A DNA stretch of 64,000 bases from a virus, in IMG/VR virus record IMGVR_UViG_3300010430_000014, positions 25,162 through 89,161 of that record; one strand, 5' to 3'. The position numbers and the translations under genes are program-made. The notes beneath the pieces are model-generated. The model ran no database searches and was not told the DNA's origin. It saw only the letters and a list, made by a program, of their open reading frames with translations. Of the stretch, positions 38,447-63,791 are shown piece after piece (position 1 is the first letter of the stretch; every line of letters begins with the position of its first letter).

Positions 38447-39079
38447 TTATACATCTTGACTATTAATAGTAATAACTAATTTTAATACCTCTGCTGCATT
38501 AAAAGGTCTGGAAGAACCAAAACGTGCTGCGGAAAACAATATACCAGATCCACTTGCTACATCACCTTTAGTTGAAACATTATTTAACATTCCACCATAA
38601 ATCGTATTTGATCCAGAGGTACAAGTAAATTCTGCCGGAGATGCAGAGTTATCAAGAGACTGTGAAGAAATAGCTCCTTCAACCCATTCCTCTCTTGTAG
38701 CTTCATCATAATTAGTAAATTCTGTACAGACAGGAACAGCATATGTCCATCCGGCAGCAGGGGTTGAATCAGAACCAAAGATAGCAATATACCAAGTAGC
38801 AGATTGTGAACCTGATTTAAAATAAACATCAAGTACATCATCCAAACTTTCATTGACTACCAAATTGTGAATTGCTTCTTTCCATCTTGGAACCCAAATA
38901 AGTTCACCAACATGATTTACACGATCTCTAATAACATTACCAAAAGTATCCACATAATTACCTACTTCAAAATTCCATATATTATAAAAACCAAAACTGC
39001 CCATTACCCCCATTTTCTTTAGCAGACCTATAACTGCTCTACGAACTAAGGGGTTATCTAAATTAATAGATTTTCGCAT
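38447..39079 (-). CDS. Beta-rich structural subunit (fibre subunit candidate)
   Basis: HNLVVNE.LD, WYIAI, TEFTNY..TR..W, NSASPAEF, GILFSAARF pattern; strong AGGAGGT RBS. Confidence 0.65.
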   Translation of the reverse strand: MRKSINLDNPLVRRAVIGLLKKMGVMGSFGFYNIWNFEVGNYVDTFGNVIRDRVNHVGELIWVPRWKEAIHNLVVNESLDDVLDVYFKSGSQSATWYIAIFGSDSTPAAGWTYAVPVCTEFTNYDEATREEWVEGAISSQSLDNSASPAEFTCTSGSNTIYGGMLNNVSTKGDVASGSGILFSAARFGSSRPFNAAEVLKLVITINSQDV

Positions 39080-39096
39080 GAGAAATACCTCCTATA

Positions 39097-39768
39097 TTAA
39101 TTAAAATGTAATAATGTTTTAGCAAGACCTGCACCAGATCTTGTTTCCAACACATGTCCAATTTCACAAAAATGTTTATCAGTTGCAAAAGGTGCAGATG
39201 GAATAGCTTCAGATAATGCTTGTCCTGAAACTTCTCCAGTATCAGTAGTCAATCCAGTTCTTGCTAATTGTCCTCTGGTAGTACTGCCCCAATAATATAC
39301 ATCAGCTATTCCAGATACAACAATCCAAGCTAAACTTCCATCTGCTATTCCATCTTCATAAAATACTCCTATACAAGAAGGGGCATCAATTGGCACAAGA
39401 ATGACTGATTCATTATTTGAAGAATCACTTGTAACACAATATCCTTTAACAGAATTACTACCTGTTTCATTAGTCAATTGAACAGCTAATCCACCTTCCG
39501 GTGTAAATATTGCATTACCATTAAGCTGATTAACTACTTGCCATGAACTATTATAATAAACTTTTAACTGATCATTTCCTGTATCAAGCCAATGCATACC
39601 TACTGTCGGTGTTACATCAGGCCAATTGGTTGCATGTCCTGGTGGATTATCCCCAGGAAATCCAAGCAATGCTGCTTCAAGACGATCAGCATTGTTATTT
39701 AATTCTTCATCGTATCTTAATGTGCCATAAGCAGCTTTTGAAAAATAAAATGCTGTTGTGTATGCCAT
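39097..39768 (-). CDS. Putative fibre-associated protein
   Basis: LNNNADRLE..PP..P..GMHWLDT..LKVY N-terminal domain plus a C-terminal cement-like beta domain. Confidence 0.55.
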   Translation of the reverse strand: MAYTTAFYFSKAAYGTLRYDEELNNNADRLEAALLGFPGDNPPGHATNWPDVTPTVGMHWLDTGNDQLKVYYNSSWQVVNQLNGNAIFTPEGGLAVQLTNETGSNSVKGYCVTSDSSNNESVILVPIDAPSCIGVFYEDGIADGSLAWIVVSGIADVYYWGSTTRGQLARTGLTTDTGEVSGQALSEAIPSAPFATDKHFCEIGHVLETRSGAGLAKTLLHFN

Positions 39769-40517
39769 TATTCAAAATCTCCTTTATATAAAGAAGCAGT
39801 TATATCTAAATATTTTGCAGGCGACCACACATCATTTATGTCTACCTGATAAACTTCAAATCTTAAATTTGGTTCATAATATCCATTATCCGTTGTATTC
39901 ATTGAAACTGTGTATGCATACTGAGCAGATCCATCAGGATATAATTTATTCACAATAGTAATAGTATCAGTCCTAAGAGCAGCACTATCAGAAAGACGTA
40001 TAACTTTAACTTTAAATTCTTTAAGCTCATCAACTACATCCCCTTCTCCATAAGTTACTGTCTTTCCATATGGGGCAACTCCATAACCATAATTTAATTT
40101 TTTAGTTCGTGTTCTCCATCTTAACTGATAATCCATTTCCATATAAACATACCCACTATCAGCAAAACCTATATTTTCATCCATCTCTACATATATATCC
40201 ACAGTTTCAGAAATAATATCATCTAATCCTAACGCTTCAATGATCTCTGCTCGATCATATTGATATAATGTATCATTTAAACCAAGAATCTCTGTAATGC
40301 TCTCAGGTAATATAAGTGTCTGTACATCTCCTAATCCAATAGTATCAGTAAAAGACTCCTCAGTTATTGGAATAAGCAAATCACCAAGGCCAAGAATCTC
40401 ATCTAATTCTTCATATCCTATATACTCATAAGAAAGAACATCATTCAATCCAAGAGTTTCTTCTAAATATTCAATTTCTGGTAATTCTGCTCCACCAACA
40501 AACTTTAATACCTTCAT
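39768..40517 (-). CDS. Repeat protein (6 x E-x-LGL-x-D) fused to a tail-tip terminal FN3-like domain
   Basis: EETLGLND, DEILGLGD, TDTIGLGD, TEILGLND, IEALGLDD, DENIGFAD, then LRWRTRT...FKVKV..LRT..YAYT..RFEVYQV. Confidence 0.65.
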   Translation of the reverse strand: MKVLKFVGGAELPEIEYLEETLGLNDVLSYEYIGYEELDEILGLGDLLIPITEESFTDTIGLGDVQTLILPESITEILGLNDTLYQYDRAEIIEALGLDDIISETVDIYVEMDENIGFADSGYVYMEMDYQLRWRTRTKKLNYGYGVAPYGKTVTYGEGDVVDELKEFKVKVIRLSDSAALRTDTITIVNKLYPDGSAQYAYTVSMNTTDNGYYEPNLRFEVYQVDINDVWSPAKYLDITASLYKGDFE

Positions 40518-40521
40518 AGCA

Positions 40522-40848
40522 TCACATCTTTAAAAGATTCCAATCAAAATCTCTACTTGTTCCATCTGTTTGTTCTAAAGTACAAATAATTTCAGTATCA
40601 ACAGGTATTGCCGGAGAATATTTATTTATTTCTAACTGAGAATTAGCAAATGTAGATTGATAAGCAAGTCTGGAAGTAGATCCAGTTTGATTTTTTGTTT
40701 TAATTCTCAATATAACTACATCCCCATCCACCAAATTATTCATATCAACAACCAAAACATAAACCCCTGCATCTGTCTCTGTATCCAAGGTATGCTCTGT
40801 ATCCACTATTGCTGTTTGGGTGTCTGATCCTACACTTGTTACTGCCAT
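40522..40848 (-). CDS. Small beta-rich virion protein
   Basis: TEHTL..GVYVLVVD..GD...TLEQTDGTSRDFDW; AGGAG RBS. Confidence 0.6.
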   Translation of the reverse strand: MAVTSVGSDTQTAIVDTEHTLDTETDAGVYVLVVDMNNLVDGDVVILRIKTKNQTGSTSRLAYQSTFANSQLEINKYSPAIPVDTEIICTLEQTDGTSRDFDWNLLKM

Positions 40849-40859
40849 TTTTATTCTCC

Positions 40860-41684
40860 TTAACTAAATGTATATATTACAGCATCAAAATAACTATTTG
40901 CACCTGTTATTGAACAGGCCCCCCGTACAGAAAGTCTTGATCCAATAGGAATATGCATTGGAATAAAAGGCGTGGCTTGAGGAAGAATCATATCAACAGT
41001 AGTATGGGAAAGCATTCCCCAATCCGAAAATAATACTTCTTCTGATCCTGATCCTCCAATTCCAACATCTATATTCCAATATGCACTTGATCTTCCATAA
41101 TCTGATCTATTGCCAATTAATAAACAAAACCCTTTAGCATCCCTAATAGTTGATGCTGTAATTTGTGACCATGTTCCTTTTGTACCTGCTACTCCTCCAG
41201 GGTTAACATAAGTACCACCAGAATCAGCAGTATTAGCTCCATAAGTATCACATACTGCAAATCCTTTATTATAATTCCATCCCCCCCTTAACAAATTAAT
41301 ACTAACCCTAAAATTATTAGCAGAAGTATATTCCCCCTGGCTTCTACCTGATATTCTGGTTCCTGCTTTTACTCTTAATGGAAATTCATAAATTCTTCCA
41401 ACATGATAAGAAACACTTGGATTAGTTAATATATTTGATATTATATCAACTTCTGATCCTTCTGCTCCCATTGCTATATCAAATAAATTATCATTACTAC
41501 CATATGTAGTTGAATAAAATGTTATAAGCAATCCTTCAGTATCAAAAGGAATAGAAGCATCAATTTCATAATAACTTCCTTTTGTATGTGCAGCAGTAGG
41601 TTGAACAAGATTAGTGTACCAAATATTATCACCAATTGACTTGTAATCCTGTGCTAATTGTTTTAAACCTGCCCAATTTGTCAT
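40860..41684 (-). CDS. Virion protein with two tandem beta-sandwich domains
   Basis: Internal duplication AHTKGSYYEI..DIAMGAEGSE..AGTRISGR / AGTKGTWSQI..DVGIGGSGSE..IGSRLSVR. Confidence 0.65.
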   Translation of the reverse strand: MTNWAGLKQLAQDYKSIGDNIWYTNLVQPTAAHTKGSYYEIDASIPFDTEGLLITFYSTTYGSNDNLFDIAMGAEGSEVDIISNILTNPSVSYHVGRIYEFPLRVKAGTRISGRSQGEYTSANNFRVSINLLRGGWNYNKGFAVCDTYGANTADSGGTYVNPGGVAGTKGTWSQITASTIRDAKGFCLLIGNRSDYGRSSAYWNIDVGIGGSGSEEVLFSDWGMLSHTTVDMILPQATPFIPMHIPIGSRLSVRGACSITGANSYFDAVIYTFS

Positions 41685-41693
41685 GATATTATC

Positions 41694-44600
41694 CTATAAC
41701 ATATTATTATTTAAAATCATCATAATTGAATCTTCTTCTACATCACTTATTAAAATAGCATCAAGATCAGTATCAATAGTTGATCCTGTTTTATTTAATA
41801 GTGCATCTAACTCAGTAACAACTGAAAGAAATTTTAATATAGCATCTAATTGAGTAGTAACTATTTCTTTTCCTTGTAATAAAACATCAAGATCAGTGGA
41901 AATTATTTTCGATTCCGTTAACATAGCATCTAATGCTGTTATAACAGAATTTAATTTTTTAATTAAAGAATCTAACGAAGTATCTAATGTTAATCCTGGT
42001 TTATTTAATATAGCATCAAGCTCAGTAACAATTCCCACTATATACAATATAGCATCCAGTTCAGTTGAAACAGAATTTAATTTTTTAAGAAAAGAATCCA
42101 ATGAAGTATTAATTGTTAAACCAATTTCATTTAAAAGAGCATCTAAAGAAATTTCTTCAGTTAATCCTAATCTACTTAACAATGAATCTAATGAAAGAGA
42201 AACTAAATCTTCCCCATATAAAATAGCATCCAGTTCAGTTGAAACTGGCGTTAATTTTGATACTAAAGCATCTAATAAAGTAGTAATAAAATCAATAGAA
42301 GATAAAGCATCATTCAAACCTAAATTCTCAAATAAATATTCAACTTCTGCAATTTCACCAATAGGAATATGAATCGATTCAGGAAAATAAGGCAATACAC
42401 CATAACCCACTATATCTATATCTGCTGATGGGGATATATCCACACCTACAGTTAAACCATGAATTGTAAATGATGATGCTTTAAAAGTTTGTGTTGTTCC
42501 TTCCCATCCTAAAGGAACTTCATAAAAGACTGTTGCATCAGATCTTAACTTTATATAAAGCTCATCATTTTCTATTACATGAGCAACTTGATCTGTATCT
42601 TTATATCCTCTTATTACATTAGTAAAAGCGTGATTAATGGTATCAATACCATGATAGTACATTAATTCATTTTCTATCCAGATAACCCCCTGAGAAGGAA
42701 ATGAGCCTGTCAGAGTTGTATTATCATAATATATCGTGGTATCATTTATTCCTATATCCTGGGCCAATAAAACAGAAGACACCGTTTCATTTACAACAGC
42801 TATATATTCATATTCAGTTCCTACTTTACGATAAATTCTTGCCCCGACAAAAAATCCACCATCTCCTTCAGGAGCATCAAAAGTGAAATATAATTTACCA
42901 GATTCAATATCCTCCTTAACTTCAAATCGTTCAACACCATACGGTACATATGGTTGAGGAAAACCACCACGACCATATCCATTTAAAACAGGAACACCAT
43001 TATCATGATATGTATATGGATTAAATTCTTCCAATTCAAATTTAACTTCAAAGTCAATTAATTCATCCATAGCTATTATTCTAAACCACTTATTTACCCA
43101 TCCAGTAATTTCATGGGTAACTCCTATTATCTCTCCCATACAAAGAGACATTCCCATTATATCAGTTTCAAATGCACAGATATGTATTTGATAATTCCAT
43201 TGATCAAGAATTCTTTGAGCCATACGTCCTGCCTGTGTAGCTCTTTTAATTCCATGCATTTTATAAAAATCAATTTTTTCTTCTTCTTCTAATACATCTA
43301 ATCGATATACATCTTCAACTTCAGCAACATCTTTTCTGTAATCTAATAACCTATTTTTAAATTCAATCCTAACTTTATTAGGTCTTCTTAAATATGATTT
43401 TTCTGCAAATGTAAAACTCCCTTCTCTTATATTATCTTTCCTTAAAGTAAATTGTTTTGCATCAGGCCAATAATCTTTTATACCATATCCCATATCTATA
43501 TAAGTAGATGTTTGTTCAATGATGACATTTGTTTGACCATCAGGATGATTCCAATGCTCCATTACCTCACCATAATCAATATCATCTCCCTTCCAATAGT
43601 TATCGGGATAAGCAGAAAAATCGGCATATATTTTTGAATAATCATCTGATTCTTGATTACTTGTAAATTGTGCTGATCCTTTTCCAAAATAAGCAACAGG
43701 TGTTTCATCCATATTAGGTATTATTAATTTATAAAGATAACCATCAGGCCAAGTACAAGGAGATATAAACCCTTGACAAGTAAGCAGTATATCTTGAATT
43801 ACATCATACATTTTTTTTGCTTGATCATAACATTGAGAAAATTGAAACCTCCGTTCTTTTACTTCAATGATTTCTCTCGGAGTATATATTTTTGCATCAA
43901 TTGATTTTTTACAAATAGAATCAGCATTAGAATAATCTAACTTATTAGTTAAACCATCTTGAAAATATTTTGGATCAGTATAATTATTCCAAAAATCCCG
44001 AATAATACTTGGAGGAGACTCATCACAATAGTACCATAAACCTGATCCATTTCCAAAAAATCCAGTTTTTGTATGTTTAAAAGTTGCACTCGCACCAATT
44101 CTATTCCACTGATATTTATAACCACTTTCTGCTTCTATTGGATATTTGGAAATCATGTACAACTCACCTGCCGGATTACTTTCAGAAGGAGGTATAAATT
44201 TCCATGCTTCATGCCGACCTGCTTGCCATGCAGTAGATCTTGTTATATAAAAATAAATATCATCTCTGACTCCATATTTTCCTATCTTATAACTACTTTC
44301 ACTTGAAAAACTACCCAAATCCATCGGCATGTATAATGGGCCTGTTGCAACTAATTTACGATATAATACTTTTCTAATACTTCTCCGGTCAATATCCAAA
44401 CCATATTTTGTAGCAGAAGCATATACTTGTTTATTTGAAAATTTTCCATCACCTAATTTAAGAAAATAAGTTCCCTGTTCACAAGCACTATTATATCCAC
44501 CAAAACTATCATAGCTTCTAAGTAAAGAATACCAAACATCTTCATATTGCTCAGTGGAAAAATCCCATTCTTTAACTGAAGTAGTTCCCATATAAATCCA

Positions 44601-46916
44601 TTGTGGTGCATGACCTGCTGCATACTGATTTCTTCTATTAATCTGTTCTTCAATGCCTGTAGTAAAATCAATTATATATGTATAAGCCTGTTTCCACGTT
44701 GGATAAGATGCACCATGAGAATAAACAAATGCTTGTTTATCAGTTGCACATGCATATACTACTATTGATGCACACCATATAGCTTGAGTAAAATAAGTAC
44801 CTATACGTGTTCTTGCTGCATCAAATGGTTCAATTACTCCAGTGTCTTTATGAATTTTCAAACAAACATGGTGTGAAGCTGCTCCTCCAAAATTTTCTCC
44901 TATATTTCCTGGTTGATAAGGCCAATCATTATCTTCTTCAGAAAATCCCAAATTAAGAAAAGTCTGAGTATAATCATAAGGATCTTGATCTAATGTAGGA
45001 TTTGTTATGGATGTATCATAGTCATTTGAAATTCGATCAAATCCAAAACAAATTCTTGAACCAGGAGTAGGGGTTGCCCCCAATGGAGATGATAAAGTAA
45101 CTTTTGTTCCATCTATTGCTGATATTGTTGATCCATAAATCCATTGATTAATAAAATGCACACGTTCCCATTGCTTGCCCCCTCCATAACTCCAAGGAGA
45201 AACAGGAGGAACATTACAAATTATTTCTGTAGATGTACTTCCTTCTCCCACTATTGCATAATCCGTTACGTGTTTAGGATATTTACATACTTGTACACGA
45301 TTACCCGAACTTGGAAATGCTGCAAACTCACCATCCACATCGATATAAGTACTTGTCTGAGTTATAATTTCCCTCCATAAATCATAACCATTTTGAGATA
45401 AAGAAGCATAACATTCTTTCCAATAATCATTAGGATATTGGGAAAAATCAGCGTACACCCTTGAATAAGTATTTGCACCTGCTACAATTGATCTCGTATC
45501 ATATAAAATAACATCCGTCATTACTTTTGCGCCAAAAAGATAAATATAATCTTCCCCCACCACCATACTTGAAAAATAATATCTTGGATTACTATTTTCA
45601 TTCTCTCCTGACGGATTACTAAATTCCTCATCATACAAAACAGAATGTACTCTATATTCTGGATCATCTAAATCATGATAATACAAATCAATTTTTGCCC
45701 CATACTCAGCATGATGATGTGCATATGTACCTGCATTGTACCAATTTCTAAATGTTAAAATATAAGCTCTATTATCTTTAACATCAGTCGCTTGTAATTT
45801 CGATCCTCCTTTTGCTACATTATCATAAAACCATTGATCTATATTGTCTATTTCCCATATTTCATAAGGATGATCACTGGCACAATGTCTAATTAAACGT
45901 TCACCAGGATCACAATAAGTAATTCCATAACCACCAAGAGCAGCACCATAACCATACCACATTTTATTTCTTCCATCTCGACAACCCCAATAAGTTGTCA
46001 TATCTGGATGTTTATATATTATAGATGGAAGAAGATCTTCTTGTAAATAATTAACACCATTGCCAGGAGTAGCAACTCCTCCCTTCATCGATTCAGGACT
46101 ATACCAAACACGATCTCTATTCATTTCAACTGTAAATGTAGGAAATACATTTAATTTACCCATTTCAAAATTACTTGGGTTCATTTCCTCCATATTTGCA
46201 AAATCAATGGAAAAATTAGATTGTTCAGGAGTAGTTTGTAAAGAAGTAAAATCAGCGATAAATCCTTTAAAATAAAATACTGTATTATCTTTTACAGGTT
46301 GATTAATTAATCCATCTACATTAACTTCATTATGAAAACCACCTTGACCACCATCAAGATAAGATAAAGGATAATAAGGATCTAAAGCATCATCATAATT
46401 TTCAAACATATCACTAAGCATCATCCAAAACCAAAAAGGCTTTTCATTAAATCTTATAACCCCTATCTCATAACCTGTTTCTGAATAACGACCTGAAAAA
46501 TTAACAGCAAATTCAGCCCAATGAGCTACTTTACTATCACTCATCATAGTAAAAAATTCTTGCCAAGCTACTCTACTTCCTGCATCACCTACATAGGGCA
46601 TATCACTGGCATTATAAATTCCAAAAGTAGCTTTATTCAAATAAATCACATGACCAGGACATATATCAGTACCAATTACATCCGGTACAGGATCTATTCT
46701 TGATCGTTCTAATTTATAATCAGGATTTCTATAATCTTTTACTTTTGGTGGATCAGGCTTAAATATATACCCCCCAATAGCCATGCCTATCTGCATTCCT
46801 GGGTATCCACCAATAATACCACCAATAATACCTCCGGCAATTGTACCTATAGTTTGTTTCTTGGTACGACTACCTTCACTTAAATCCATACTTTGTGTTG
46901 ATTGCTGTTGCCCCAT
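41694..46916 (-). CDS. Tail tip / central fibre protein (J-like), long paralog with C-terminal LDA repeats
   Basis: GGIIGG..GMAIGG N-terminus, NKVRIEF, GIKRATQAGR, GEIIGVTH..WFRI, IENELMYY..VIRG; 13 LDA-type repeats at the C-terminus. Confidence 0.8.
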   Translation of the reverse strand: MGQQQSTQSMDLSEGSRTKKQTIGTIAGGIIGGIIGGYPGMQIGMAIGGYIFKPDPPKVKDYRNPDYKLERSRIDPVPDVIGTDICPGHVIYLNKATFGIYNASDMPYVGDAGSRVAWQEFFTMMSDSKVAHWAEFAVNFSGRYSETGYEIGVIRFNEKPFWFWMMLSDMFENYDDALDPYYPLSYLDGGQGGFHNEVNVDGLINQPVKDNTVFYFKGFIADFTSLQTTPEQSNFSIDFANMEEMNPSNFEMGKLNVFPTFTVEMNRDRVWYSPESMKGGVATPGNGVNYLQEDLLPSIIYKHPDMTTYWGCRDGRNKMWYGYGAALGGYGITYCDPGERLIRHCASDHPYEIWEIDNIDQWFYDNVAKGGSKLQATDVKDNRAYILTFRNWYNAGTYAHHHAEYGAKIDLYYHDLDDPEYRVHSVLYDEEFSNPSGENENSNPRYYFSSMVVGEDYIYLFGAKVMTDVILYDTRSIVAGANTYSRVYADFSQYPNDYWKECYASLSQNGYDLWREIITQTSTYIDVDGEFAAFPSSGNRVQVCKYPKHVTDYAIVGEGSTSTEIICNVPPVSPWSYGGGKQWERVHFINQWIYGSTISAIDGTKVTLSSPLGATPTPGSRICFGFDRISNDYDTSITNPTLDQDPYDYTQTFLNLGFSEEDNDWPYQPGNIGENFGGAASHHVCLKIHKDTGVIEPFDAARTRIGTYFTQAIWCASIVVYACATDKQAFVYSHGASYPTWKQAYTYIIDFTTGIEEQINRRNQYAAGHAPQWIYMGTTSVKEWDFSTEQYEDVWYSLLRSYDSFGGYNSACEQGTYFLKLGDGKFSNKQVYASATKYGLDIDRRSIRKVLYRKLVATGPLYMPMDLGSFSSESSYKIGKYGVRDDIYFYITRSTAWQAGRHEAWKFIPPSESNPAGELYMISKYPIEAESGYKYQWNRIGASATFKHTKTGFFGNGSGLWYYCDESPPSIIRDFWNNYTDPKYFQDGLTNKLDYSNADSICKKSIDAKIYTPREIIEVKERRFQFSQCYDQAKKMYDVIQDILLTCQGFISPCTWPDGYLYKLIIPNMDETPVAYFGKGSAQFTSNQESDDYSKIYADFSAYPDNYWKGDDIDYGEVMEHWNHPDGQTNVIIEQTSTYIDMGYGIKDYWPDAKQFTLRKDNIREGSFTFAEKSYLRRPNKVRIEFKNRLLDYRKDVAEVEDVYRLDVLEEEEKIDFYKMHGIKRATQAGRMAQRILDQWNYQIHICAFETDIMGMSLCMGEIIGVTHEITGWVNKWFRIIAMDELIDFEVKFELEEFNPYTYHDNGVPVLNGYGRGGFPQPYVPYGVERFEVKEDIESGKLYFTFDAPEGDGGFFVGARIYRKVGTEYEYIAVVNETVSSVLLAQDIGINDTTIYYDNTTLTGSFPSQGVIWIENELMYYHGIDTINHAFTNVIRGYKDTDQVAHVIENDELYIKLRSDATVFYEVPLGWEGTTQTFKASSFTIHGLTVGVDISPSADIDIVGYGVLPYFPESIHIPIGEIAEVEYLFENLGLNDALSSIDFITTLLDALVSKLTPVSTELDAILYGEDLVSLSLDSLLSRLGLTEEISLDALLNEIGLTINTSLDSFLKKLNSVSTELDAILYIVGIVTELDAILNKPGLTLDTSLDSLIKKLNSVITALDAMLTESKIISTDLDVLLQGKEIVTTQLDAILKFLSVVTELDALLNKTGSTIDTDLDAILISDVEEDSIMMILNNNML
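41750..42285 (-). repeat. Second LDA coding-repeat tract (13 units) at the end of the tail tip gene
   Basis: Same unit as the 60-63.7 kb tract. Confidence 0.85.
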
Positions 46917-56362: not shown

Positions 56363-56686
56363 TTATCGTTGCCATTTTTTCAATTGACTTGCAGCATCAG
56401 GATTAAAATCCCAACTAATACTGGTTGAAGGATCTTGTCCACCAGATCTATAAATTAAACTTAATTTTCTTTCTTGATCCTCCAATTGCTTAACCCCTTT
56501 TGCCGGATCTGAAAAAGCAACAGCTACATCACTTACAAAAAGTTTACGTTGTCGAAGCATTTCAAAATCAATTGCCTGTTTAACATAAAAATATTTTTTA
56601 TAAGGCATTTGATCAAGATCTTCAAAAGTATATGCTCCTCCAAGGAAATTGATTATCGCTGCAAATTCCTTGCAACGTGCAATTAG
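56363..56686 (-). CDS. Tail assembly chaperone, -1 frameshift extension (GT-like)
   Basis: The -1 frame is open from the slippery site (LIARCKEFAAIINFLGGAYTFEDLDQ) into the 56608-56363 ORF. Confidence 0.8.
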   Translation of the reverse strand, partial: LIARCKEFAAIINFLGGAYTFEDLDQMPYKKYFYVKQAIDFEMLRQRKLFVSDVAVAFSDPAKGVKQLEDQERKLSLIYRSGGQDPSTSISWDFNPDAASQLKKWQR

Positions 56687-57054: not shown

Positions 57055-57105
57055 TGTAATACCTCCTTAATTAACAATTAGTTATTAGTTAAAACACATT
57101 AACCA

Positions 57106-57429
57106 CTACCCATCGAAAACATCAAAGTCAATATAAAATACCTCTTGACTTTCTTCCGCAGTTACTACTTTTATTTTTATTCTATATTCTTGATTATGTA
57201 CTCCTGCTCTAATATAAGGCTTTAAAATATTTCCCACAGTATATGTACATTTAATAACATCAAGAATAGTAGAGCTTTCATCGGAACCTGTTTCTTTATT
57301 TTTTGCAGTAAAATTTACAGAATTTAAAGTTTCAGTTCCTACCCAACTACTAATATCCAGTTGTGCAAAAAATTGAGAATAAGAGGGCTTTGACTTACCA
57401 ATTTGAAAGTACCTTTCATCATCATACAT
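57106..57429 (-). CDS. Small Ig-like fibre adaptor candidate
   Basis: LDISSWV..ETL.S...IRAG...EYRIKIKVVT pattern, resembling small phage fibre-attachment proteins. Confidence 0.5.
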   Translation of the reverse strand: MYDDERYFQIGKSKPSYSQFFAQLDISSWVGTETLNSVNFTAKNKETGSDESSTILDVIKCTYTVGNILKPYIRAGVHNQEYRIKIKVVTAEESQEVFYIDFDVFDG

Positions 57430-57779
57430 TAGATATATACCTCATAATCCTTTCTGGTTATTAAAGTATTTCCTCTTGAAAATAACCAAAATCTATAATT
57501 ATTAGTCACAATACAATTTACATATTCTGATAAATTAAACCCAATTTTTTGTTTTAAAAAACCACGACCAAAACGCCTTATAAATCTTTCACCATTATTT
57601 ATATCAATTAAAATATCGTGTTTTGGCAGAATTGCAATTTTTGGCAAAAAAGTAATTCTAACAACTTCATCAGGATTTAAACTTTTCCAAGTATTTTCTG
57701 TTCCATCATCATTAAACTGTTTAAGAACAGTTCCATCAGCAGTTTCCATTTCATATCGATATACCACATTTGGTTTCAT
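57429..57779 (-). CDS. Hypothetical protein
   Basis: Coupled to neighbours; DG.VLKQF motif. Confidence 0.6.
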   Translation of the reverse strand: MKPNVVYRYEMETADGTVLKQFNDDGTENTWKSLNPDEVVRITFLPKIAILPKHDILIDINNGERFIRRFGRGFLKQKIGFNLSEYVNCIVTNNYRFWLFSRGNTLITRKDYEVYI

Positions 57780-58079
57780 TTAAATTTTCTCCATTGGTAA
57801 CTGACATATTTTTGCCAAAGCAGGATCTAACCTCCCATCATATATCCGGCAAACTTCAGGTCGTTTTATATAAATTTTACAACCTTCATCTGTTAACTGA
57901 GGACAAGGATGGTAAAGTAAAAAATAAACCCTATTATCTTTAACTGTTATTATTTTTATATTTCTTATTGCAGCAAATTGTTCATACAAATAATATGAGC
58001 CTTTGATCTCAAGATCAAAACTAATATTTTTACAACATTCAAGGCATTCAAGACAAATATTATTATTATTTTTCGACAT
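57780..58079 (-). CDS. YkgJ-like cysteine-cluster protein
   Basis: CLECLECC...CPQL...CKIYIKRPEVCRIY. Confidence 0.85.
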   Translation of the reverse strand: MSKNNNNICLECLECCKNISFDLEIKGSYYLYEQFAAIRNIKIITVKDNRVYFLLYHPCPQLTDEGCKIYIKRPEVCRIYDGRLDPALAKICQLPMEKI

Positions 58080-59310
58080 ACCAAATAGTATCGATGGTTT
58101 TAATTTTTAAATTTTTCTTTTTAAAATAATCATCTACTGCTCTCACAACTTCAAGAAATCCAGAAGAATAATCATGACCACAAACAAGTTTTGTAGTTCC
58201 TGGTTCATAATTTTCTAAATCTTCCGTAACTTCTTTATACAAATGACCTCCATCAAAAAAAGTCATTTCAGATTGAAAAGGATCATCCGTAGAATTTAAA
58301 TGCTTAAATGCATTTGTACTGTTCATTTTCAAAACATCTAAATTATTAAAACAAGCAGTATTCCTTTTAAATATTTCATAAATGTTTACTCCATCTTCAA
58401 TTTCTTTAAAAGCACCACGATACAATTCACCACGTTCAGGTAATTGCACAGGATCATCAGTACCTTCAAAATGATCAATGGCAGTTACATGCCCCTCAGT
58501 ACAACCAGAGCATAATGCATGAGTACTCTTACCCTTCCAAGAACCGATTTCCACAATTGATTTCATCCTCTTTGCACTTTGATATAAAAAATTTTGTTCC
58601 CGAACACTCATCCATCCAAGAATATCATTGCAATAATGATAATCCATTGTAAGAGCTAATTGATGATCTAATTTTTTAATTGTTTTCTTTCCAATGTGTC
58701 CAATATCTACATTAGGAACACACGCCATTTCAATACCTTCAAGATTGCATCGATGGCAAAAAGACAAATCCTCACCTAACTCTCTACCATTATCCAATTG
58801 CCAAAAATTAAAAGGTCTTCCAAATTTTTTAATTCGTTTTTCATTAAGAAAATATTTAATAATTTCATTTTTAAAATAAGATACCCCAATAGGTACTCCT
58901 TTTACAAGCCAGGGTTTATTAGGAATATCGTTATCTTTATAAGAACGAAAGGCATAATCAGTTTCCACATTATCCTCTACAAACACAAGTGGAGGATGGG
59001 GAGAACGAACAGCATAATAAAGTCCACCAATAACAGGGGCCAAATCACATTCAATGAGTTTAACAACATCAGGAGGAGAAAACTCCATATCAGTATCCAA
59101 AGATATAAGATCGTATCCTTCCTTTAAAGCGTCATCAAAAAGAGCATTTCGTTGAGAAGAAATTACTGTTCCTTCTTTATACATAACATCCACAAAATAC
59201 CCTTTTTGAGCCAAATGAAAAATAAGGTTTGTAATAGCTAATTGAAATTTAGGTTCTGGTAAATTCTTATAATAAGGAACACCGATCATTATTTTTTTAT
59301 CATCATTCAT
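58066..59310 (-). CDS. GT-A (GT2-like) glycosyltransferase fused to class I methyltransferase
   Basis: IGVP, QRN, LDTD (DxD), GEDLSFC, GHIG; then GWMS, VEIGSWKGKST, IDHF, FFDGGHLY, GHDY. Confidence 0.88.
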   Translation of the reverse strand: MNDDKKIMIGVPYYKNLPEPKFQLAITNLIFHLAQKGYFVDVMYKEGTVISSQRNALFDDALKEGYDLISLDTDMEFSPPDVVKLIECDLAPVIGGLYYAVRSPHPPLVFVEDNVETDYAFRSYKDNDIPNKPWLVKGVPIGVSYFKNEIIKYFLNEKRIKKFGRPFNFWQLDNGRELGEDLSFCHRCNLEGIEMACVPNVDIGHIGKKTIKKLDHQLALTMDYHYCNDILGWMSVREQNFLYQSAKRMKSIVEIGSWKGKSTHALCSGCTEGHVTAIDHFEGTDDPVQLPERGELYRGAFKEIEDGVNIYEIFKRNTACFNNLDVLKMNSTNAFKHLNSTDDPFQSEMTFFDGGHLYKEVTEDLENYEPGTTKLVCGHDYSSGFLEVVRAVDDYFKKKNLKIKTIDTIWYVEK

Positions 59311-59363
59311 GAGTTTTCTCCTCCTGATTAACCACTTTTTAATTATGTTAACAGAATTAACTT

Positions 59364-59858
59364 TTAAGTTTCATCATAAGCAAATGTTAATGTCTCTGGA
59401 GTTAAAGCCCCAGGACTTGCAGTATTTGTAACAGTCATTTGCAAACGAAGATGATCACCATAGTTTCCAGTATCAGTCTTTCCGGTAGTGTCATTTGTTT
59501 GATCCATATCAATAGCTGCACCATCGGTTTTTGTAAAAAGATCTGTTCCAGAAATATCGGCATCCGTCTGAGTTGCAAATGTCTGCAAAGTATCATACTG
59601 AACACCAACACCTGTTCCGAAACCACTTGAACCATCTGAATAGGCACGAAGATTAGTAAGATCAACTGAAGGCGCACCTGTAATATTAGCCCTCAATTGC
59701 TTTGTATAAGAATAATCCGTACCTGCCCCTGGAATTTGCAGACGATCAGCAGTATCAACTGTTGTGTCATCTGCCGATTTAAACCTGACAGTATCACTCG
59801 TTTTGTCTACCCCCTGAGTGTCCGTTGTCATTTCCCAAATTTGAACTGTTGCTGTCAT
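59364..59858 (-). CDS. Beta-rich structural subunit ending TFAYDET (fibre subunit candidate)
   Basis: Thr/Asp/Gly-rich; RFKSAD, IP...YSY.K.LR, LQMTV..ASPG..ETLTFAYDET. Confidence 0.7.
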   Translation of the reverse strand: MTATVQIWEMTTDTQGVDKTSDTVRFKSADDTTVDTADRLQIPGAGTDYSYTKQLRANITGAPSVDLTNLRAYSDGSSGFGTGVGVQYDTLQTFATQTDADISGTDLFTKTDGAAIDMDQTNDTTGKTDTGNYGDHLRLQMTVTNTASPGALTPETLTFAYDET

Positions 59859-59945
59859 AATACTTCTCCTATTGTCATTCGCATACCGTAAAGCACCTCC
59901 TGACGTTTAAAGTTAATATTATAGGAACTCATGTAACATAATTAA

Positions 59946-62900
59946 TTACGTGCCACATCGTTCCAACCCCAACATAAAAGATGGTTTTTCCAACAAACTT
60001 ATCATATCCGGCTTTTCAAGTAATGAAGTAAAACAATATCGAGAATTAGCCAAAACAATTACTGTATAAACAAGAGCATCCATAAAAGTTGATTCGTAAA
60101 AATTACCTTTTAATAAACCATCTAAATTTGTAAACTCAGTTATTTCTTTAACGATTATAGCGTCCATTTGCATTTCTAAAATATCACCGCCATAAAGAAC
60201 AGCATCTAAAAAAACTAATTTCTCTATATCCATTTTTTGCAATAAAGCATCCAACTCAACCGTTTTAGTTATACCCAATGTAACAAGTAATGCGTCTATT
60301 TCTGATGTTAAAGTAAATAATTTAAATATCTGAGAATCCATTACTGCCATTCTTTGAAGATTAACTTCTTGCAATAATGCATCCATAGAAATATTTTTTA
60401 AAATTATCTTTATAAGTAATGCATCTAATACTGATGATACAATATTTACTTTTACAAGCAATGCATCTAAATCTATAGTTGTTATAAGTCCTGTACCTTG
60501 AATCATTACATCCAACGAAGCATAATTTAACAAATCGGGTTTTATCAAAAAAGCATCCAATGATGTTATAATTTGACTTATTTCCATAGAATACAAAATT
60601 GCATCCAATGAAGTTGTTATTAATTTAGATGATTTTATCAAAGCATCTATAGATAAAGAAGTTTCAATGCCCAATTTAATTAAATAAGCATCTAAAGAAA
60701 TCTCCATTGTTCTTGTTTTATTTAATAATACATCCAAAGATAAGGATGCTATTTCATCAACAATTGTTAATAGACCATCCAGGGATATATTTTGTAATTG
60801 TTCTTTTTTAACAATGGCATCCAACGATGTATTTACCTCAATCCCTAATGAAGAAAGAAAAGCATCTAAGGATAAACTTACTGTAATTCCTACTTCATTT
60901 AATAATGCATCCAAATCTGCATCAATCAAAATTGTATCAAATAAAAAAGAATCCAATGAAGTTGATGTTGTTAACCCCATTTCCTTTAATAAAGCATCAA
61001 AACTAAAAGAAACTGTAATTGATTTTTTAAACAAAGCATCTAAAGAAACTCCAATTTCTATATACTGTTTTGTAAGAAGTGCATCTATCGAGAAATCCTT
61101 TACTAACCCGATCTTATTTAATAGGGCATCCAAATCAGTAGTAGTTAAATTTAATTTACTTAAAATTGAATCTAAAGAAGTTGATACTGTTAAACCCAAT
61201 TTATTAAGCAATGCGTCTAAATTAGTAGTAACTAAACCTGCTTGTTCTAATATAGCATCAAGTGAAGATTCAAAAGTCAAATTTAATTTTTGAAGATAAG
61301 CATCCAAGTCTGTAGTAACTAAACCCAATTTGCTTAGAATTGAATCTAATGAAGACTCTGAAGTTAGATTCAATCCTTTTAATAATGCATCCAGTGAAGA
61401 TTCAAAAGTTAAATCTAATTTTTGAAGGTAAGCATCCAGTTCATTGGTTTTTTCTATTCCTAATTTATTAAGTAATGCATCCAAATTAACAGTAACCAAA
61501 CCCAATTTACTTAACAATGCATCTAATGAAAGATCTTCTGTTAATCCTAATTTATTAAGCAATACATCAAAATTAGATTCAATAGTAAGATCTAATCCTT
61601 TTAACAATGCGTCTAATTCATTGGTTTTTTCTATTCCCAATTTACTAAACAACGCATCTAATGAAAGATCTTCTGTTAATCCTAATTTATTTAACAAGGC
61701 ATCTAAATTTGTAGTAACTAATCCCAATTTATTTAACAGGGCATCCAAAGAAGTTGATACTGTTAAACCCAATTTATTAAGTAGTGCATCCAAATTAACA
61801 GTAACCAAACCCAATTCACTTAACAATGCATCTAAAGAAAGATCTTCCGTTAATCCTAATTTATTTAACAGAGCATCAAGGTTAACAAAAATTACATCTG
61901 CCTGTATTAAAATCGCATCTAACGAAATATCAGAAGTTAAATTTAATTTATTAAGCAAAGCATCCAAGTCTGTAGTAACTAAACCCAATTTGCTTAATAG
62001 AACATCTAACGAAATATCAGAAGTTAAATTTAATCCTTTTAATAATGCATCCAAAGAAGAATCCACAGTTAAATTTAATTTTTGAAGATATGCATCCAGT
62101 TCATTAGTTTTTTCTATTCCTAATTTACTAAGCAACGCATCTAAAGAAATAATTTTCATATATGTTTTAACAAGGAATGCATCTAAATCAACAGTAGCTA
62201 AACCCAATTTATTTAATAATGCATCCAATGAAGATTCAAAAGTTAAATTTAACTTTTGAAGATAGGCATCCAAAGAAGAATCAAAAGTTAGATCTAATTT
62301 TTGAAGGTAAGCATCCAGTTCATTAGTCTTCTCTATTCCTAATTTATTTAATAAAGCATCGAGATCAGTAGTAACTAAATTTAATTTACTTAATAGAGCA
62401 TCCAGTGAAGATTCAAAGGTTAATCCTATTTTATTAAGTAGGGCATCTAATGAAGATTCAAAAGTTAAATTTAATTTTTGAAGATAAGCATCTAATTCAT
62501 TAGTCTTTTCTATCCCCAACAAAGAAAGAAAAGCATCCAATGAAAAATCTCTTACAACTAACTTACTGAGCAAAGCATCCAAGTCTGTAGTAACTAAACC
62601 CAATTTGCTTAGAATTGAATCTAAAGATGTATCAATCGTTAAACCTGTAACTTTTAATATTGCATCTAACTCAGTTGTCTTTTCAACATCTAATTTTTTC
62701 AACAATGAATCTAAAGAAGATTCAACAGTAAGATCTAATCCTTTTAACAACGCATCCAAAGAGGAATCAGCAGTTAGATTTAATTTTTGAAGATAAGCGT
62801 CTAATTCATTAGTAGTTAATCCTAATTTACTCAAAATTGAATCTAACGAAAGAGTTTCAATTTGTAAATATGTAAGCAAAGCATCTAATTCTGCTTGTTT

Positions 62901-63791
62901 TTCAATTGCCAATATTTGAAGCAAAGAATCTAAAGAAGCATCCTCAGTCAACCCTACCTTACTTAACAAAGCATCTAAATCAGTTGCTATTGTATATTCC
63001 TTTTGTAATTGAGCATCCAATGATGTTGTAACAGTTTTTAAAATACTCAAAATTGCATCCAATGAAATCTCTTTGGTTTCATCAACTACTTTTAATAAAG
63101 CATCCAATGAAATATTTTCAGTAATTTCCTCAGAAACAAAAGCATCCAATGACGTTGAAATGCTAAGTCCTAATTTATTTAATAAGGCATCCAAAGATAA
63201 AGATATTGTAATATCAGATTGTTTTAACAGAGCATCGAGATCAACAGTTTTTTCAATATCTATATTTTGTAATAAAGCATCCAAAGAAGATGATGCTGTT
63301 AACCCCATTTCTTTTAACAAAGCATCCAGGGATAATGATTCAAAGCCAGTTTCTTTAAGTAAAGCATCCAATGCAATTTCTTTAATTATACCTATCTTAC
63401 TTAATAATGCGTCTAAAGATAATTGTTTTTCAATAATCTCCTGTAATAAAGCATCCAAATTTATATCTTTAGTTTGCATATACACTAATAAAGCATCTAA
63501 ATTTATATCTTCAGATACTATCTTTTTTAAAAATGCATCCATTGCAGCTTCTTCAGTTAAATCTAATTTACTTAAATAAGCATCCAATGAAAGAGTTTTA
63601 GTCTGCAAATATGCAAGCACAGCATCCAAAGATAAAGTAACTGGAATTGTTTTTTGAAGATAAGAATCTAATGATACATTACTTGATAATACCTTTTTTA
63701 ATAAGGAATCTAAACTACTTGCCTCTGTGTAAGTCGTAAAACCTGCACTTACCTCAACGTTCCATATTATTTTATCTCCATGAATACCCAT
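59946..63791 (-). CDS. Giant LDA-repeat protein (roughly 80 repeats of ~15-16 aa)
   Basis: Nearly the whole 1281 aa is (S/D/E)LD(A/S)(L/I/Y)LxKxxx units; the count is estimated from length divided by period. Confidence 0.85.
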   Translation of the reverse strand: MGIHGDKIIWNVEVSAGFTTYTEASSLDSLLKKVLSSNVSLDSYLQKTIPVTLSLDAVLAYLQTKTLSLDAYLSKLDLTEEAAMDAFLKKIVSEDINLDALLVYMQTKDINLDALLQEIIEKQLSLDALLSKIGIIKEIALDALLKETGFESLSLDALLKEMGLTASSSLDALLQNIDIEKTVDLDALLKQSDITISLSLDALLNKLGLSISTSLDAFVSEEITENISLDALLKVVDETKEISLDAILSILKTVTTSLDAQLQKEYTIATDLDALLSKVGLTEDASLDSLLQILAIEKQAELDALLTYLQIETLSLDSILSKLGLTTNELDAYLQKLNLTADSSLDALLKGLDLTVESSLDSLLKKLDVEKTTELDAILKVTGLTIDTSLDSILSKLGLVTTDLDALLSKLVVRDFSLDAFLSLLGIEKTNELDAYLQKLNLTFESSLDALLNKIGLTFESSLDALLSKLNLVTTDLDALLNKLGIEKTNELDAYLQKLDLTFDSSLDAYLQKLNLTFESSLDALLNKLGLATVDLDAFLVKTYMKIISLDALLSKLGIEKTNELDAYLQKLNLTVDSSLDALLKGLNLTSDISLDVLLSKLGLVTTDLDALLNKLNLTSDISLDAILIQADVIFVNLDALLNKLGLTEDLSLDALLSELGLVTVNLDALLNKLGLTVSTSLDALLNKLGLVTTNLDALLNKLGLTEDLSLDALFSKLGIEKTNELDALLKGLDLTIESNFDVLLNKLGLTEDLSLDALLSKLGLVTVNLDALLNKLGIEKTNELDAYLQKLDLTFESSLDALLKGLNLTSESSLDSILSKLGLVTTDLDAYLQKLNLTFESSLDAILEQAGLVTTNLDALLNKLGLTVSTSLDSILSKLNLTTTDLDALLNKIGLVKDFSIDALLTKQYIEIGVSLDALFKKSITVSFSFDALLKEMGLTTSTSLDSFLFDTILIDADLDALLNEVGITVSLSLDAFLSSLGIEVNTSLDAIVKKEQLQNISLDGLLTIVDEIASLSLDVLLNKTRTMEISLDAYLIKLGIETSLSIDALIKSSKLITTSLDAILYSMEISQIITSLDAFLIKPDLLNYASLDVMIQGTGLITTIDLDALLVKVNIVSSVLDALLIKIILKNISMDALLQEVNLQRMAVMDSQIFKLFTLTSEIDALLVTLGITKTVELDALLQKMDIEKLVFLDAVLYGGDILEMQMDAIIVKEITEFTNLDGLLKGNFYESTFMDALVYTVIVLANSRYCFTSLLEKPDMISLLEKPSFMLGLERCGT
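60020..63730 (-). repeat. Degenerate tandem coding repeat, ~45-48 bp period
   Basis: GCATC(C/T)A recurs throughout; exact 52-bp copies at 61298-61349 and 62573-62624. Confidence 0.9.

What the first reader, a model, noticed from the sequence alone, without database searches (positions are those of the whole stretch)
38447..63791. Candidate repeat-templated filament system: scaffold repeats paired with small subunits
Seen: (a) a 1281-aa protein of roughly 80 LDA units directly upstream of a 164-aa beta-rich gene, with 13 more units on the tail-tip protein and one on the upstream propeller protein; (b) six E-x-LGL-x-D units in 39768-40517, two genes upstream of another beta-rich subunit (38447-39079); (c) the four-motif protein between the lectin paralogs. 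The subunit genes in (a) and (b) have very strong RBSs, while the giant repeat gene relies on TAATG coupling. The units alternate hydrophobic residues like single beta strands and lack collagen or heptad patterns. Known: donor-strand complementation builds pili, and tape measures set length. Inference: each repeat binds one subunit, so repeat number sets fibre length, and any protein that gains the repeat becomes an anchor for a fibre. This would be a modular 'tape-measure for fibres' with orthogonal repeat/subunit pairs.
Basis: partly seen in the sequence, partly recalled or inferred. Interest (0 to 1): 0.8.

Follow-up and report, generated by a model that had tools for sequence, protein, structure and literature searches.

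The report
Two rope-and-bead phage fibre cassettes
An uncultured long-tailed phage from marine sediment probably builds "beads-on-a-rope" fibres, in which a repeat protein is coated by many copies of a small protein; one set matches a fibre type solved recently by cryo-EM, and the other is an undescribed sister type with 84 repeats.

Summary
The 1281-aa protein is 84 back-to-back 14/15-aa S-L-D-A-L-L-x-K-L-G-L units. The 1740-aa J-like tail-tip protein ends in 13 such units, and the 249-aa protein has 5 strict plus 2 relaxed E-x-LGL-x-D units.

The idea is not new. "Chain-like" fibres, a rope with tandem docking sites coated by small dimers, are solved in podophages GP4 and A1002 and in Bas63.

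Cassette (b) is of that kind. The 210-aa protein is homologous to A1002 fibre protein gp41 (E 3.6e-16; profile 5e-34).

Cassette (a) is inferred only. The 164-aa protein has no detectable relative among solved structures. Support comes from:
- an LDA array beside it in 26 of 36 related loci, and in 0 of 79 gp41-like loci;
- a GP4 gp77-type fibre-tail adaptor in the cassette;
- LDA and LGLGD arrays swapped in orthologous J-like proteins;
- one rope variant (LRG for LDA) paired with the only bead that breaks 5 otherwise invariant residues.

Against: This scan reported the same kind before on other DNA. Verdict: new variant of a known kind.

The parts
59946..63791 (-). 1281-aa LDA-repeat protein: candidate rope with 84 units of 14/15 aa, a 25-aa N-terminus, and a C-terminal tail with two short L-L-E-K-P strands
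   Evidence: C-tails of relatives compared
59364..59858 (-). 164-aa beta-sandwich protein: candidate bead of the LDA rope
   Evidence: no Pfam, PHROG or PDB relative
58066..59310 (-). 414-aa glycosyltransferase-like plus SAM methyltransferase fusion; an optional insert in the cassette (homologue in 9 of 36 related loci)
57780..58079 (-). 99-aa CxxCxxCC protein, found only in this window among the loci held
57429..57779 (-). 116-aa conserved cassette protein of unknown family (homologue in 32 of 36 related loci)
57106..57429 (-). 107-aa positional orthologue of the GP4 gp77 fibre-tail adaptor (Ig-like collar)
   Evidence: own score 18.7 bits, below the cutoff of 27; 6 of 6 orthologues tested score 28.2-39.6 bits; weak match to 8jou_D
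41694..42347 (-). C-terminal rope domain of the 1740-aa J-like tail-tip protein: one LGL-N-D unit, then 13 LDA units, then the cap M-M-I-L-N-N-N-M-L
   Evidence: orthologues in L045 and L048 carry LGLGD units at the same place
39768..40517 (-). 249-aa protein with 5-7 E-x-LGL-x-D units (residues 20-122) and a globular C-terminal half: candidate rope for the 210-aa bead
   Evidence: conserved with the bead in G002 and in L043-L048
39097..39768 (-). 223-aa protein of unknown role between rope and bead; by eye an 83-aa counterpart of its N-terminus sits at the same place in G002
38447..39079 (-). 210-aa bead: homologue of A1002 chain-like fibre protein gp41 (the 171-aa chain of PDB 26la/44nx)
   Evidence: phrog_8123
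32195..32473 (-). 92-aa four-motif protein between two lectin-like paralogues; motifs confirmed, role untested

Best explanation
The late operon of this siphovirus-type phage encodes two rope-and-bead (chain-like) fibre systems. The phage type is inferred from a putative 1833-aa tape measure followed by lambda M/L/K/J-like tail-tip genes.

System B. The 210-aa protein is a bead of the GP4 gp80 / A1002 gp40-gp41 kind (shown by homology). It most likely docks as dimers on the E-x-LGL-x-D units, spaced about 18-20 aa, of the 249-aa protein (inferred).

System A. The 1281-aa protein is a rope of 84 LDA units, and the adjacent, highly conserved 164-aa beta-sandwich protein is its bead. The rope's short C-terminal strand repeats, together with the gp77-like 107-aa adaptor and the 116-aa protein, would tie it to the virion (all inferred). 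The same LDA array at the C-terminus of the J-like protein would let the tail tip carry 13 units' worth of the same bead.

The two unit types act as separate docking codes. Unit number sets the length of each fibre. If two units hold one dimer at the spacing seen in A1002 (about 27 A per dimer), the long rope would be about 110 nm (inference).

In relatives the rope's N-terminus carries lectin-type domains, so the fibres most likely act in reversible adhesion to surface glycans (inferred).
For: Known precedent, from passages and sections read:
- A1002 nozzle-rope gp39 holds 11 dimers of gp40/gp41 by beta-sheet augmentation on a dock of about 268 residues and about 300 A.
- GP4 has a separately encoded rope, five gp80 dimers and a gp77 adaptor; Bas63 has a collar with a rope extension.

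System B:
- The 210-aa protein matches the 171-aa chain of 26la/44nx at E 3.6e-16, and a family profile matches at 5e-34.
- Seven Pseudomonas phage records, among them KPP25 of A1002's genus Kochitakasuvirus, are among 13 cultured-phage hits. In KPP25 the hit is ORF007 (171 aa), next to the 147-aa and 620-aa genes.
- The LGL-x-D protein sits upstream of the bead in G002 and in 6 of 6 closest loci.
- 41 of 75 gp41-like loci have a tandem-repeat protein of period 14-22 on the same strand, 36 of them within 3 kb, and 28 with period 20.

System A:
- An LDA array (chain of 5 or more units) occurs in 26 of 36 loci that hold a 164-aa homologue and in 0 of 79 gp41-like loci. LGL-x-D chains occur in 9 of 79 and 0 of 36. 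Shuffled proteins give 0 in both sets.
- The LDA gene is directly upstream of the 164-aa gene in 20 of 36 loci, with gaps of 3-112 nt.
- Only 1 of 6 near-complete genomes with the cassette has a gp41-like gene, so that bead is not the LDA partner.
- 6 of 6 orthologues of the 107-aa protein pass Pfam PF23148 Gp77.
- Orthologous J-like proteins carry LDA units here and LGLGD units in L045/L048, between identical flanks.
- In L036 the rope reads L-R-G instead of L-D-A. Its bead alone breaks 5 of 17 otherwise invariant columns (K19R, R25V, K27R, V34Q, D35T), while the 28 other unique sequences break 0-2.
- By eye, three representatives fuse a few LDA-like units to a 164-like domain (P0303, P0391, P0397).
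- The bead size of 164 aa lies within the 140-171 aa of solved beads.
Against: - The 164-aa family has no detectable sequence relation to gp41-like proteins (hhalign probability 0.4% and 0.2%), to GP4 gp80, or to any PDB chain.
- The LDA unit has N-cap-like S/D/N, an i, i+3/4, i+7 hydrophobic pattern and Gly at position 10. Its array shows alpha-type hydrophobic periodicity (ratio 3.4, like the putative tape measure at 3.27), unlike the KPP25 gp39 dock region (0.29). A self-folding helical or trimeric shaft is therefore not excluded.
- 10 of 36 loci lack a canonical LDA array within the flanks held. L021 is cut at a contig end, and L035 and L036 carry divergent arrays, but L014, L018-L020 and L034 have full upstream flanks without one.
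- The loci are redundant: 29 unique bead sequences of 37.
- The co-variation case is a single lineage. P0303 lacks R25 yet has Asp-bearing units, so a simple D-R salt bridge does not hold.
- The window's own 107-aa protein scores below the Pfam cutoff.
- No fold, complex, expression or stoichiometry data could be obtained.
Confidence: 0.58

Rival explanations
1. The LDA array is a self-supporting fibre shaft: a helical repeat, or a homotrimeric alpha/beta coiled coil of short helices and cross-over strands. It links a lectin-type tip to a short anchor tail. The 164-aa protein is then a conserved partner that binds only one end (anchor, cap or assembly factor), at low stoichiometry.
For: - The LDA array has alpha-type hydrophobic periodicity, and the unit has helix cap-like residues.
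- In 84 long relatives the architecture is N-terminal domain (median about 395 aa, 11 of 96 with precomputed PF13385), then array, then short C-tail. That is a classic fibre layout.
- The conserved feature next to the conserved 164-aa protein could be the C-tail of short E-K-P-x-F-like strands rather than the units.
- Beta-layers and D-A-L-L motifs occur in trimeric fibres, including a prophage tail fibre (passages).
- Lambda J is a trimer (recalled), so the C-terminal array on the J-like protein could trimerise.
Against: - It does not explain why LDA and LGLGD arrays replace each other in orthologous J-like proteins when the LGL-x-D type goes with a proven bead family.
- It does not explain the bead changes that accompany the LRG rope variant.
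- It does not explain the gp77-type adaptor in the cassette.
- No heptad, collagen or triple beta-spiral pattern fits the unit exactly (my reading).
Confidence: 0.28
2. The 164-aa protein is an unrelated major virion protein, such as a head decoration, tail or neck protein. It sits next to the LDA fibre gene only through conserved gene order.
For: - It is very conserved (60-87% identity among the 120 best homologues) with constant length, and it has a good RBS.
- In L005 the cassette lies just before the head-tail adaptor, head closure and tail terminator genes.
- Some loci have the 164-aa gene without an LDA array.
Against: - The cassette moves as a unit to different genome positions: before terminase in L022, after tail fibres in L006, and before the connector genes in L005.
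- L005 has its own 307-aa tail-tube-position protein.
- The LRG/bead co-variation and the fusions argue for a direct link.
Confidence: 0.08
3. The Thr/Ser-rich linkers of the LDA array are a scaffold for glycosylation by the adjacent GT-methyltransferase, giving a glycan-coated fibre without protein beads.
For: A 414-aa GT plus methyltransferase fusion lies inside the cassette. T/S is common at unit positions 12-15.
Against: Only 9 of 36 related loci have the GT/MT gene near the cassette, whereas the 164-aa and 116-aa genes are nearly constant. Glycosylation could coexist with beads.
Confidence: 0.05

Closest known systems
Chain-like fibre of Pseudomonas podophage A1002 (nozzle-rope gp39 with gp40/gp41 dimers; PLoS Biol 2026, PMC13730344; abstract, passages and sections 9 and 11 read)
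   Same: The window's 210-aa protein is a sequence homologue of gp41. Both have a repeat-bearing rope domain fused to a tail protein, two bead types in one virion, and a bead size of 147-171 aa.
   Different: Here the host virion is siphovirus-like, with a lambda-type tip. The rope is fused to a J-like protein or encoded alone, not to a nozzle. The unit motifs (LGL-x-D, LDA) differ from most of the KPP25 gp39 dock region. There are 84 units against 11 dimers. The second bead (164 aa) is not detectably related to the first.
Fiber-1 of Ralstonia podophage GP4 (gp80 dimers, separately encoded rope, gp77 fibre-tail adaptor; PDB 8JOU; J Mol Biol 2023, not held, known only through citing papers)
   Same: Both have a separately encoded rope, and a gp77-family adaptor in the same cassette. 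The gene order has rope and bead next to each other upstream of the adaptor. GP4 gp79, beside gp80, has a period-20 repeat with phi-D-A/G-x-G units that recalls LDA.
   Different: GP4 has five dimers only. Neither the 164-aa nor the 210-aa protein matches gp80 by BLASTP. That gp79 is the GP4 rope is my guess: it has no PDB chain by sequence, and the paper could not be read.
Collar/whisker complex of myophage Bas63 (Sci Adv 2025, PMC12609058; passages read)
   Same: An Ig-like collar, with a rope segment that holds whisker dimers. This shows that the rope can be a domain of another protein.
   Different: There are two dimers per rope, and the rope is an N-terminal extension of the collar. No sequence comparison was made here.
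Bead-chain neck fibre of cyanophage A-1(L) (Nat Commun 2024, PMC10966104; passages read)
   Same: A beaded fibre about 100 nm long made of many copies of a small protein.
   Different: The beads are trimers joined head to tail, without a rope protein.

Membership tests
Chain-like (rope-and-bead) fibre, system B (38447-40517) | Bead protein homologous to GP4 gp80 / A1002 gp40-gp41 | tested here: met
   The 210-aa protein matches 26la_U/44nx (171 aa) at E 3.6e-16 over residues 67-203. Profile A2 matches at E 5.2e-34. There is no direct BLASTP match to gp80.
Chain-like (rope-and-bead) fibre, system B (38447-40517) | Rope protein or domain with tandem docking segments encoded beside the bead | tested here: met
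   The 249-aa protein has 5 strict and 7 relaxed LGL-x-D units. It is conserved with the bead in G002 and L043-L048. 36 of 75 gp41-like loci have a tandem-repeat protein within 3 kb.
Chain-like (rope-and-bead) fibre, system B (38447-40517) | Bead dimers dock on the rope by beta-sheet augmentation | not testable with these tools
Chain-like (rope-and-bead) fibre, system A (57106-63791) | Bead protein homologous to, or of the same fold as, known beads | tested here: not met
   By sequence: no PDB hit for profiles A1 and A4; hhalign against the gp41-like profile gives probability 0.4% and 0.2%. The fold could not be compared because no model could be made. The Atlas model is an Ig/CARDB-like sandwich.
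Chain-like (rope-and-bead) fibre, system A (57106-63791) | Rope with tandem units encoded beside the bead, co-occurring across genomes | tested here: met
   84 units. LDA arrays occur in 26 of 36 bead loci and 0 of 79 control loci. The LDA gene is directly upstream in 20 of 36.
Chain-like (rope-and-bead) fibre, system A (57106-63791) | gp77-type Ig-like fibre-tail adaptor (Pfam PF23148) | tested here: inconclusive
   The window's own 107-aa protein scores 18.7 bits against a cutoff of 27. Its orthologues pass in 6 of 6 loci tested. phmmer links them to the window protein at E 1e-17 to 1e-27.
Chain-like (rope-and-bead) fibre, system A (57106-63791) | Many beads per rope (stoichiometry far above 1) | not testable with these tools
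   No proteomics is available, and no RNA run is listed.
Trimeric fibre shaft (triple beta-spiral or alpha/beta coiled coil) | Repeat pattern that fits the known shaft motifs, and self-assembly as a trimer | tested here: inconclusive
   The period of 14/15 and Gly at position 10 recall the 15-residue adenovirus shaft repeat (recalled), but the hydrophobic positions 2, 5, 6, 9, 11 do not alternate. The periodicity is alpha-type. Trimer prediction was not possible.
Tape measure protein | Lies between the tail chaperones and the tail-tip genes and measures the tail tube | tested here: not met
   That position is held by the 1833-aa protein, directly upstream of the M/L/K/J-like genes. The LDA cassette sits at other genome positions in relatives.

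The most novel reading that the evidence does not exclude
The LDA unit and the 164-aa protein are a second, undescribed rope/bead code that coexists in one virion with the gp41-type code. The two array types are exchanged between orthologous tail-tip proteins, which re-assigns the bead that coats the central fibre. Ropes reach 84 sites (about 0.1 micrometre), roughly 4-8 times the longest solved chain-like fibre, which has 11 dimers. The LDA-to-LRG switch with matched bead changes would then be a natural example of re-coding a docking pair. That would give a readable, and possibly designable, peptide-domain code for building fibres of set length.
Probability: 0.35. Interest if true: 0.75.

Novelty: new variant of a known kind. 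Interest (0 to 1): 0.58.

Why it matters
Chain-like fibres are known from a handful of cryo-EM structures, mostly of podophages, with 2 to 11 bead pairs.

This locus and its relatives suggest that the design is common in uncultured phages. I found 434 gp41-like stretches in IMG/VR and 633 representatives of the 164-aa family. The design also occurs on lambda-type tail tips, comes in at least two unrelated bead families with their own docking repeats, and scales to 84 units.

If the pairing holds, repeat count becomes a readable predictor of fibre length. The unit/bead pairs would be a natural modular kit for host adhesion, and possibly for nanofibre engineering.

It also gives a function to two large families of 'hypothetical' phage proteins.

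Tried and rejected
Structure route. Structure prediction, complex prediction and the look-up of encoding contigs were closed, so fold search could not be used. No fold or complex evidence exists for any claim here. The ESM Atlas holds the 1281-aa protein but has no model of it.

Cultured phages. There was no DNA or protein match for the tail-tip region, the 1281-aa protein, the 164-aa protein or a gp77-like orthologue. The low-complexity filter may hide the repeat protein.

Sequence searches of the PDB with the 1281-aa protein, the 164-aa family and GP4 gp79 found nothing meaningful. The two weak A4 hits (E 0.029 and 0.9) are unrelated enzymes and binding proteins.

Rejected readings:
- The 164-aa protein as major tail protein. 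L005 has a separate 307-aa protein in the tube position.
- The 1281-aa protein as tape measure or scaffold. Its position and its relatives' lectin-type N-terminal domains argue against this.
- The Pfam UBA_6 hit on the repeat. It has no stretch passing on its own and is a repeat artefact.

The promoter and terminator scan gave fewer sites than shuffles and nothing usable.

No RNA holder was listed for the phage. Six DNA runs of marine sediment metagenomes hold it.

A search for relatives of the 335-aa lectin-like protein in viral contigs found nothing. Part (c) therefore stays untested beyond.

A second LRG-type locus was sought and not found.

The A1002 supplements (S3 and S12 Figs, S2 Table) may list the docking residues and could bear on whether LGL-x-D or LDA-like segments are the contact sites.

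Papers searched.

Full report
SETTING

The window is the last 64 kb of an 89-kb linear virus record that CheckV estimates to be 83% complete. The window ends at the contig end. G+C is about 30%.

The late genes run on the minus strand. From upstream to downstream they are:
- a partial gene at the contig end;
- the 1281-aa repeat protein;
- a 164-aa protein;
- a 414-aa glycosyltransferase-like plus methyltransferase fusion;
- proteins of 99, 116, 107, 123 and 81 aa;
- an 1833-aa protein with no family hit, which I take as the tape measure because lambda M-, L- and K-like genes and two J-like genes (744 and 1740 aa) follow directly;
- proteins of 274, 108, 249, 223, 210 and 150 aa;
- two propeller-like paralogues and further genes.

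Head genes are not on the record. Six DNA runs of marine sediment metagenomes hold the stretch, and no RNA run is listed.

THE OBSERVATION

The 1281-aa protein is one uninterrupted array. The motif [LIMFV]-D-[AGSV]-x-x occurs 84 times, with 83 consecutive spacings of 15 (46 times), 14 (36 times) or 16 (once). The consensus is S-L-D-A-L-L-x-K-L-G-L-T-x-x-x.

DNA-level repeats of 87-90 and 174-177 nt show recent duplication in blocks of two and four units.

The J-like 1740-aa protein ends in one LGL-N-D unit, 13 LDA units and the cap M-M-I-L-N-N-N-M-L. The 249-aa protein has 5 strict and 7 relaxed E-x-LGL-x-D units, mostly 18-20 residues apart. The 92-aa protein has four related motifs.

The RBS statements are correct but not distinctive.

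The statement that the units alternate like beta strands is not borne out for LDA. The array's hydrophobic power is alpha-type (ratio 3.4). The dock region of the KPP25 homologue of the solved A1002 rope gives 0.29.

WHAT IS KNOWN

The Pfam hit of the 107-aa protein's orthologues to PF23148, named 'Podophage GP4 fiber-tail adaptor protein gp77' (6 of 6 pass), led me to the literature on chain-like fibres.
- In A1002, the nozzle-rope protein gp39 provides docking sites for 11 dimers: gp40 seven times and gp41 four times. Each dimer forms an augmented beta-sheet with the rope. The beads are 140-171 aa in GP4, VP1 and A1002.
- In GP4, five gp80 dimers sit on a separately encoded rope that interlocks with the Ig-like gp77 collar. 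In Bas63 the rope is an extension of the collar.

I could not read the GP4 paper itself.

SYSTEM B

The 210-aa protein matches the 171-aa 'structural protein' chain of 26la/44nx at E 3.6e-16. A profile of 26 relatives matches at 5.2e-34. 44NX is the entry that the A1002 paper gives for gp40/gp41, and 171 aa is the length of gp41.

Among cultured phages the 210-aa protein hits 13 records. They include KPP25 of the same genus as A1002, where the hit is the 171-aa ORF007 next to the 147-aa and 620-aa genes.

In the complete 112-kb relative G002 the same gene order recurs: J-like, then a 399-aa protein with similar units, then 83 aa, then a 204-aa bead. In the six closest IMG/VR loci a 247-250-aa protein with 5-6 units lies upstream of the bead.

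More widely, 41 of 75 gp41-like loci carry a tandem-repeat protein of period 14-22 on the same strand. Of these, 36 lie within 3 kb and 28 have period 20 (examples). GP4 gp79, beside gp80, also has a period-20 repeat.

I conclude that the 210-aa protein is a chain-fibre bead (shown by homology). I infer that the 249-aa protein is its rope.

SYSTEM A

The 164-aa protein has 252 close homologues of constant length and 633 representatives in the 50% library. It has no Pfam, PHROG or PDB relative and no profile link to the gp41-like family.

The case for it being the LDA bead is comparative.

1. Co-occurrence. An LDA array (chain of 5 or more units) is present in 26 of 36 loci found through the 164-aa protein and in 0 of 79 loci found through the gp41-like protein. 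LGL-x-D chains show the reverse, 0 of 36 and 9 of 79. Shuffled proteins give none.
2. Adjacency. The LDA gene is directly upstream of the 164-aa gene in 20 of 36 loci. These loci are partly redundant, with 29 unique bead sequences among 37.
3. The known bead is excluded as partner. Only 2 of 12 records with the cassette, and 1 of 6 that are at least 90% complete, encode a gp41-like protein.
4. A mobile cassette. The cassette LDA, 164, (GT), 116, gp77-like keeps together while its genome position changes.
5. An array swap. The J-like proteins of L045 and L048 carry about 10-12 LGLGD units exactly where the window's J-like protein carries 13 LDA units, between the same flanks. The two arrays are therefore exchangeable modules of one kind.
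6. Co-variation. In L036 the array reads S-T-L-R-G-Y-L... with the same 14-residue period. Its 164-aa homologue is the only one of 29 unique sequences to change K19, R25, K27, V34 and D35. It breaks 5 of 17 otherwise invariant columns, and the others break 0-2, including more divergent ones.
7. Fusions. By eye, three representatives join a few LDA-like units to a 164-like domain.

Unit numbers range from 9 to 84 in what I saw, and the window's protein has the most. In 78 of 84 long relatives the array ends within 130 residues of the C-terminus, behind a variable N-terminal domain (median start at residue 395). In 11 of the 96 proteins that domain carries the precomputed family PF13385, whose lectin-type name I recall rather than looked up. 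The C-tails are short tandem strands such as E-K-P-x-F, which I suggest are the anchor.

WHAT SPEAKS AGAINST SYSTEM A

- There is no homology of the bead to known beads, and no structural test was possible.
- The LDA unit looks helix-like.
- Ten of 36 loci lack a canonical array. At least five of those (L014, L018-L020, L034) have intact upstream flanks.
- The co-variation rests on one lineage. P0303 lacks R25 yet has Asp-bearing units.

A self-supporting fibre shaft, with the 164-aa protein binding only one end, therefore remains a serious rival (0.28).

STOICHIOMETRY AND LENGTH (INFERENCE)

In A1002 about 268 dock residues hold 22 bead monomers over about 300 A.

Several LDA ropes have their strongest self-similarity at 28-30 residues, and the window's DNA repeats are 87-90 nt. 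This fits one dimer per two units. At that ratio, 84 units would hold about 42 dimers over roughly 110 nm.

EARLIER NOTES OF THIS SCAN

Follow-up agents reported the same kind on other DNA. One report describes a 112-kb phage with a 1242-residue rope of about 80 repeats and a 163-residue protein. That fits my locus L006/G002 by size and lengths, though I could not confirm it is the same record.

These are unchecked AI notes. I reached the reading before I saw them, and I count them as agreement, not as evidence.

VERDICT

- System B is a new member of a known kind.
- System A is most likely a new variant, with a new bead family, a new docking unit, a record unit number and a siphovirus tail-tip fusion.
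- Confidence in the overall reading is 0.58.

Noticed in passing
L036:2-2080 and L036:2083-2574: A rope variant in which every unit reads L-R-G instead of L-D-A, with the same 14-aa period. Its bead homologue uniquely changes five otherwise invariant residues. No second such locus was found in IMG/VR.
   Followed up: partly
window 41694-42347; L045:3-3863; L048:2-1984: Orthologous J-like tail-tip proteins carry different repeat arrays (13 LDA units here, about 10-12 LGLGD units there) between the same flanks, and all end in M-M-I-L-N-N-N-M-L.
   Followed up: partly
L053-L121 (for example L059:6475-8535, L054:7164-9698, L074:7875-11015): Many gp41-like genes lie next to proteins made of strict 20-residue repeats with a D-G-phi-x-phi-x-D core. 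In L059 the self-identity is 96%. These look like a widespread rope class.
   Followed up: partly
L038:32948-33925 (GP4 gp79): The GP4 gene between Fiber-1 gp80 and fibre gp78 encodes a 325-aa Gly/Ala-rich protein with a period-20 repeat (phi-D-A/G-x-G). It is a plausible GP4 rope, but it has no PDB chain by sequence.
   Followed up: partly
window 31150-33491; L054:7164-9698; L074:6499-7878; L003:7112-9973: The window's 335-aa lectin-like protein is homologous to the N-terminal domains of 20-aa-repeat ropes in other phages (E 1e-8 to 1e-9). By eye, a similar domain precedes the LDA array in L003.
   Followed up: partly
L014:8522-8881: By eye, a 119-aa protein resembling GP4 gp80 lies two genes upstream of a 164-aa homologue in a locus that lacks an LDA array.
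   Followed up: no
window 58066-59310 and 57780-58079: A GT-like plus methyltransferase fusion and a CxxCxxCC protein are inserted in the fibre cassette. The GT/MT gene is in 9 of 36 related loci, and the CxxCxxCC gene is only here.
   Followed up: partly
window 46916-49150 and 41694-46916: Two consecutive J-like genes (744 and 1740 aa) both start with a Gly-rich hydrophobic segment (G-G-[IV]-I-G-G-Y-P-G). The same pair occurs in G002.
   Followed up: no
L042:6973-7497 (G002): By eye an HNH-type gene sits between the gp41-like bead gene and the next structural gene in the 112-kb relative, and is absent from the window.
   Followed up: no
window 50851-56352: The putative 1833-aa tape measure has no Pfam or PHROG hit, and its gene has a strong negative AT skew (-0.17 to -0.24 over 52-56 kb).
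   Followed up: no
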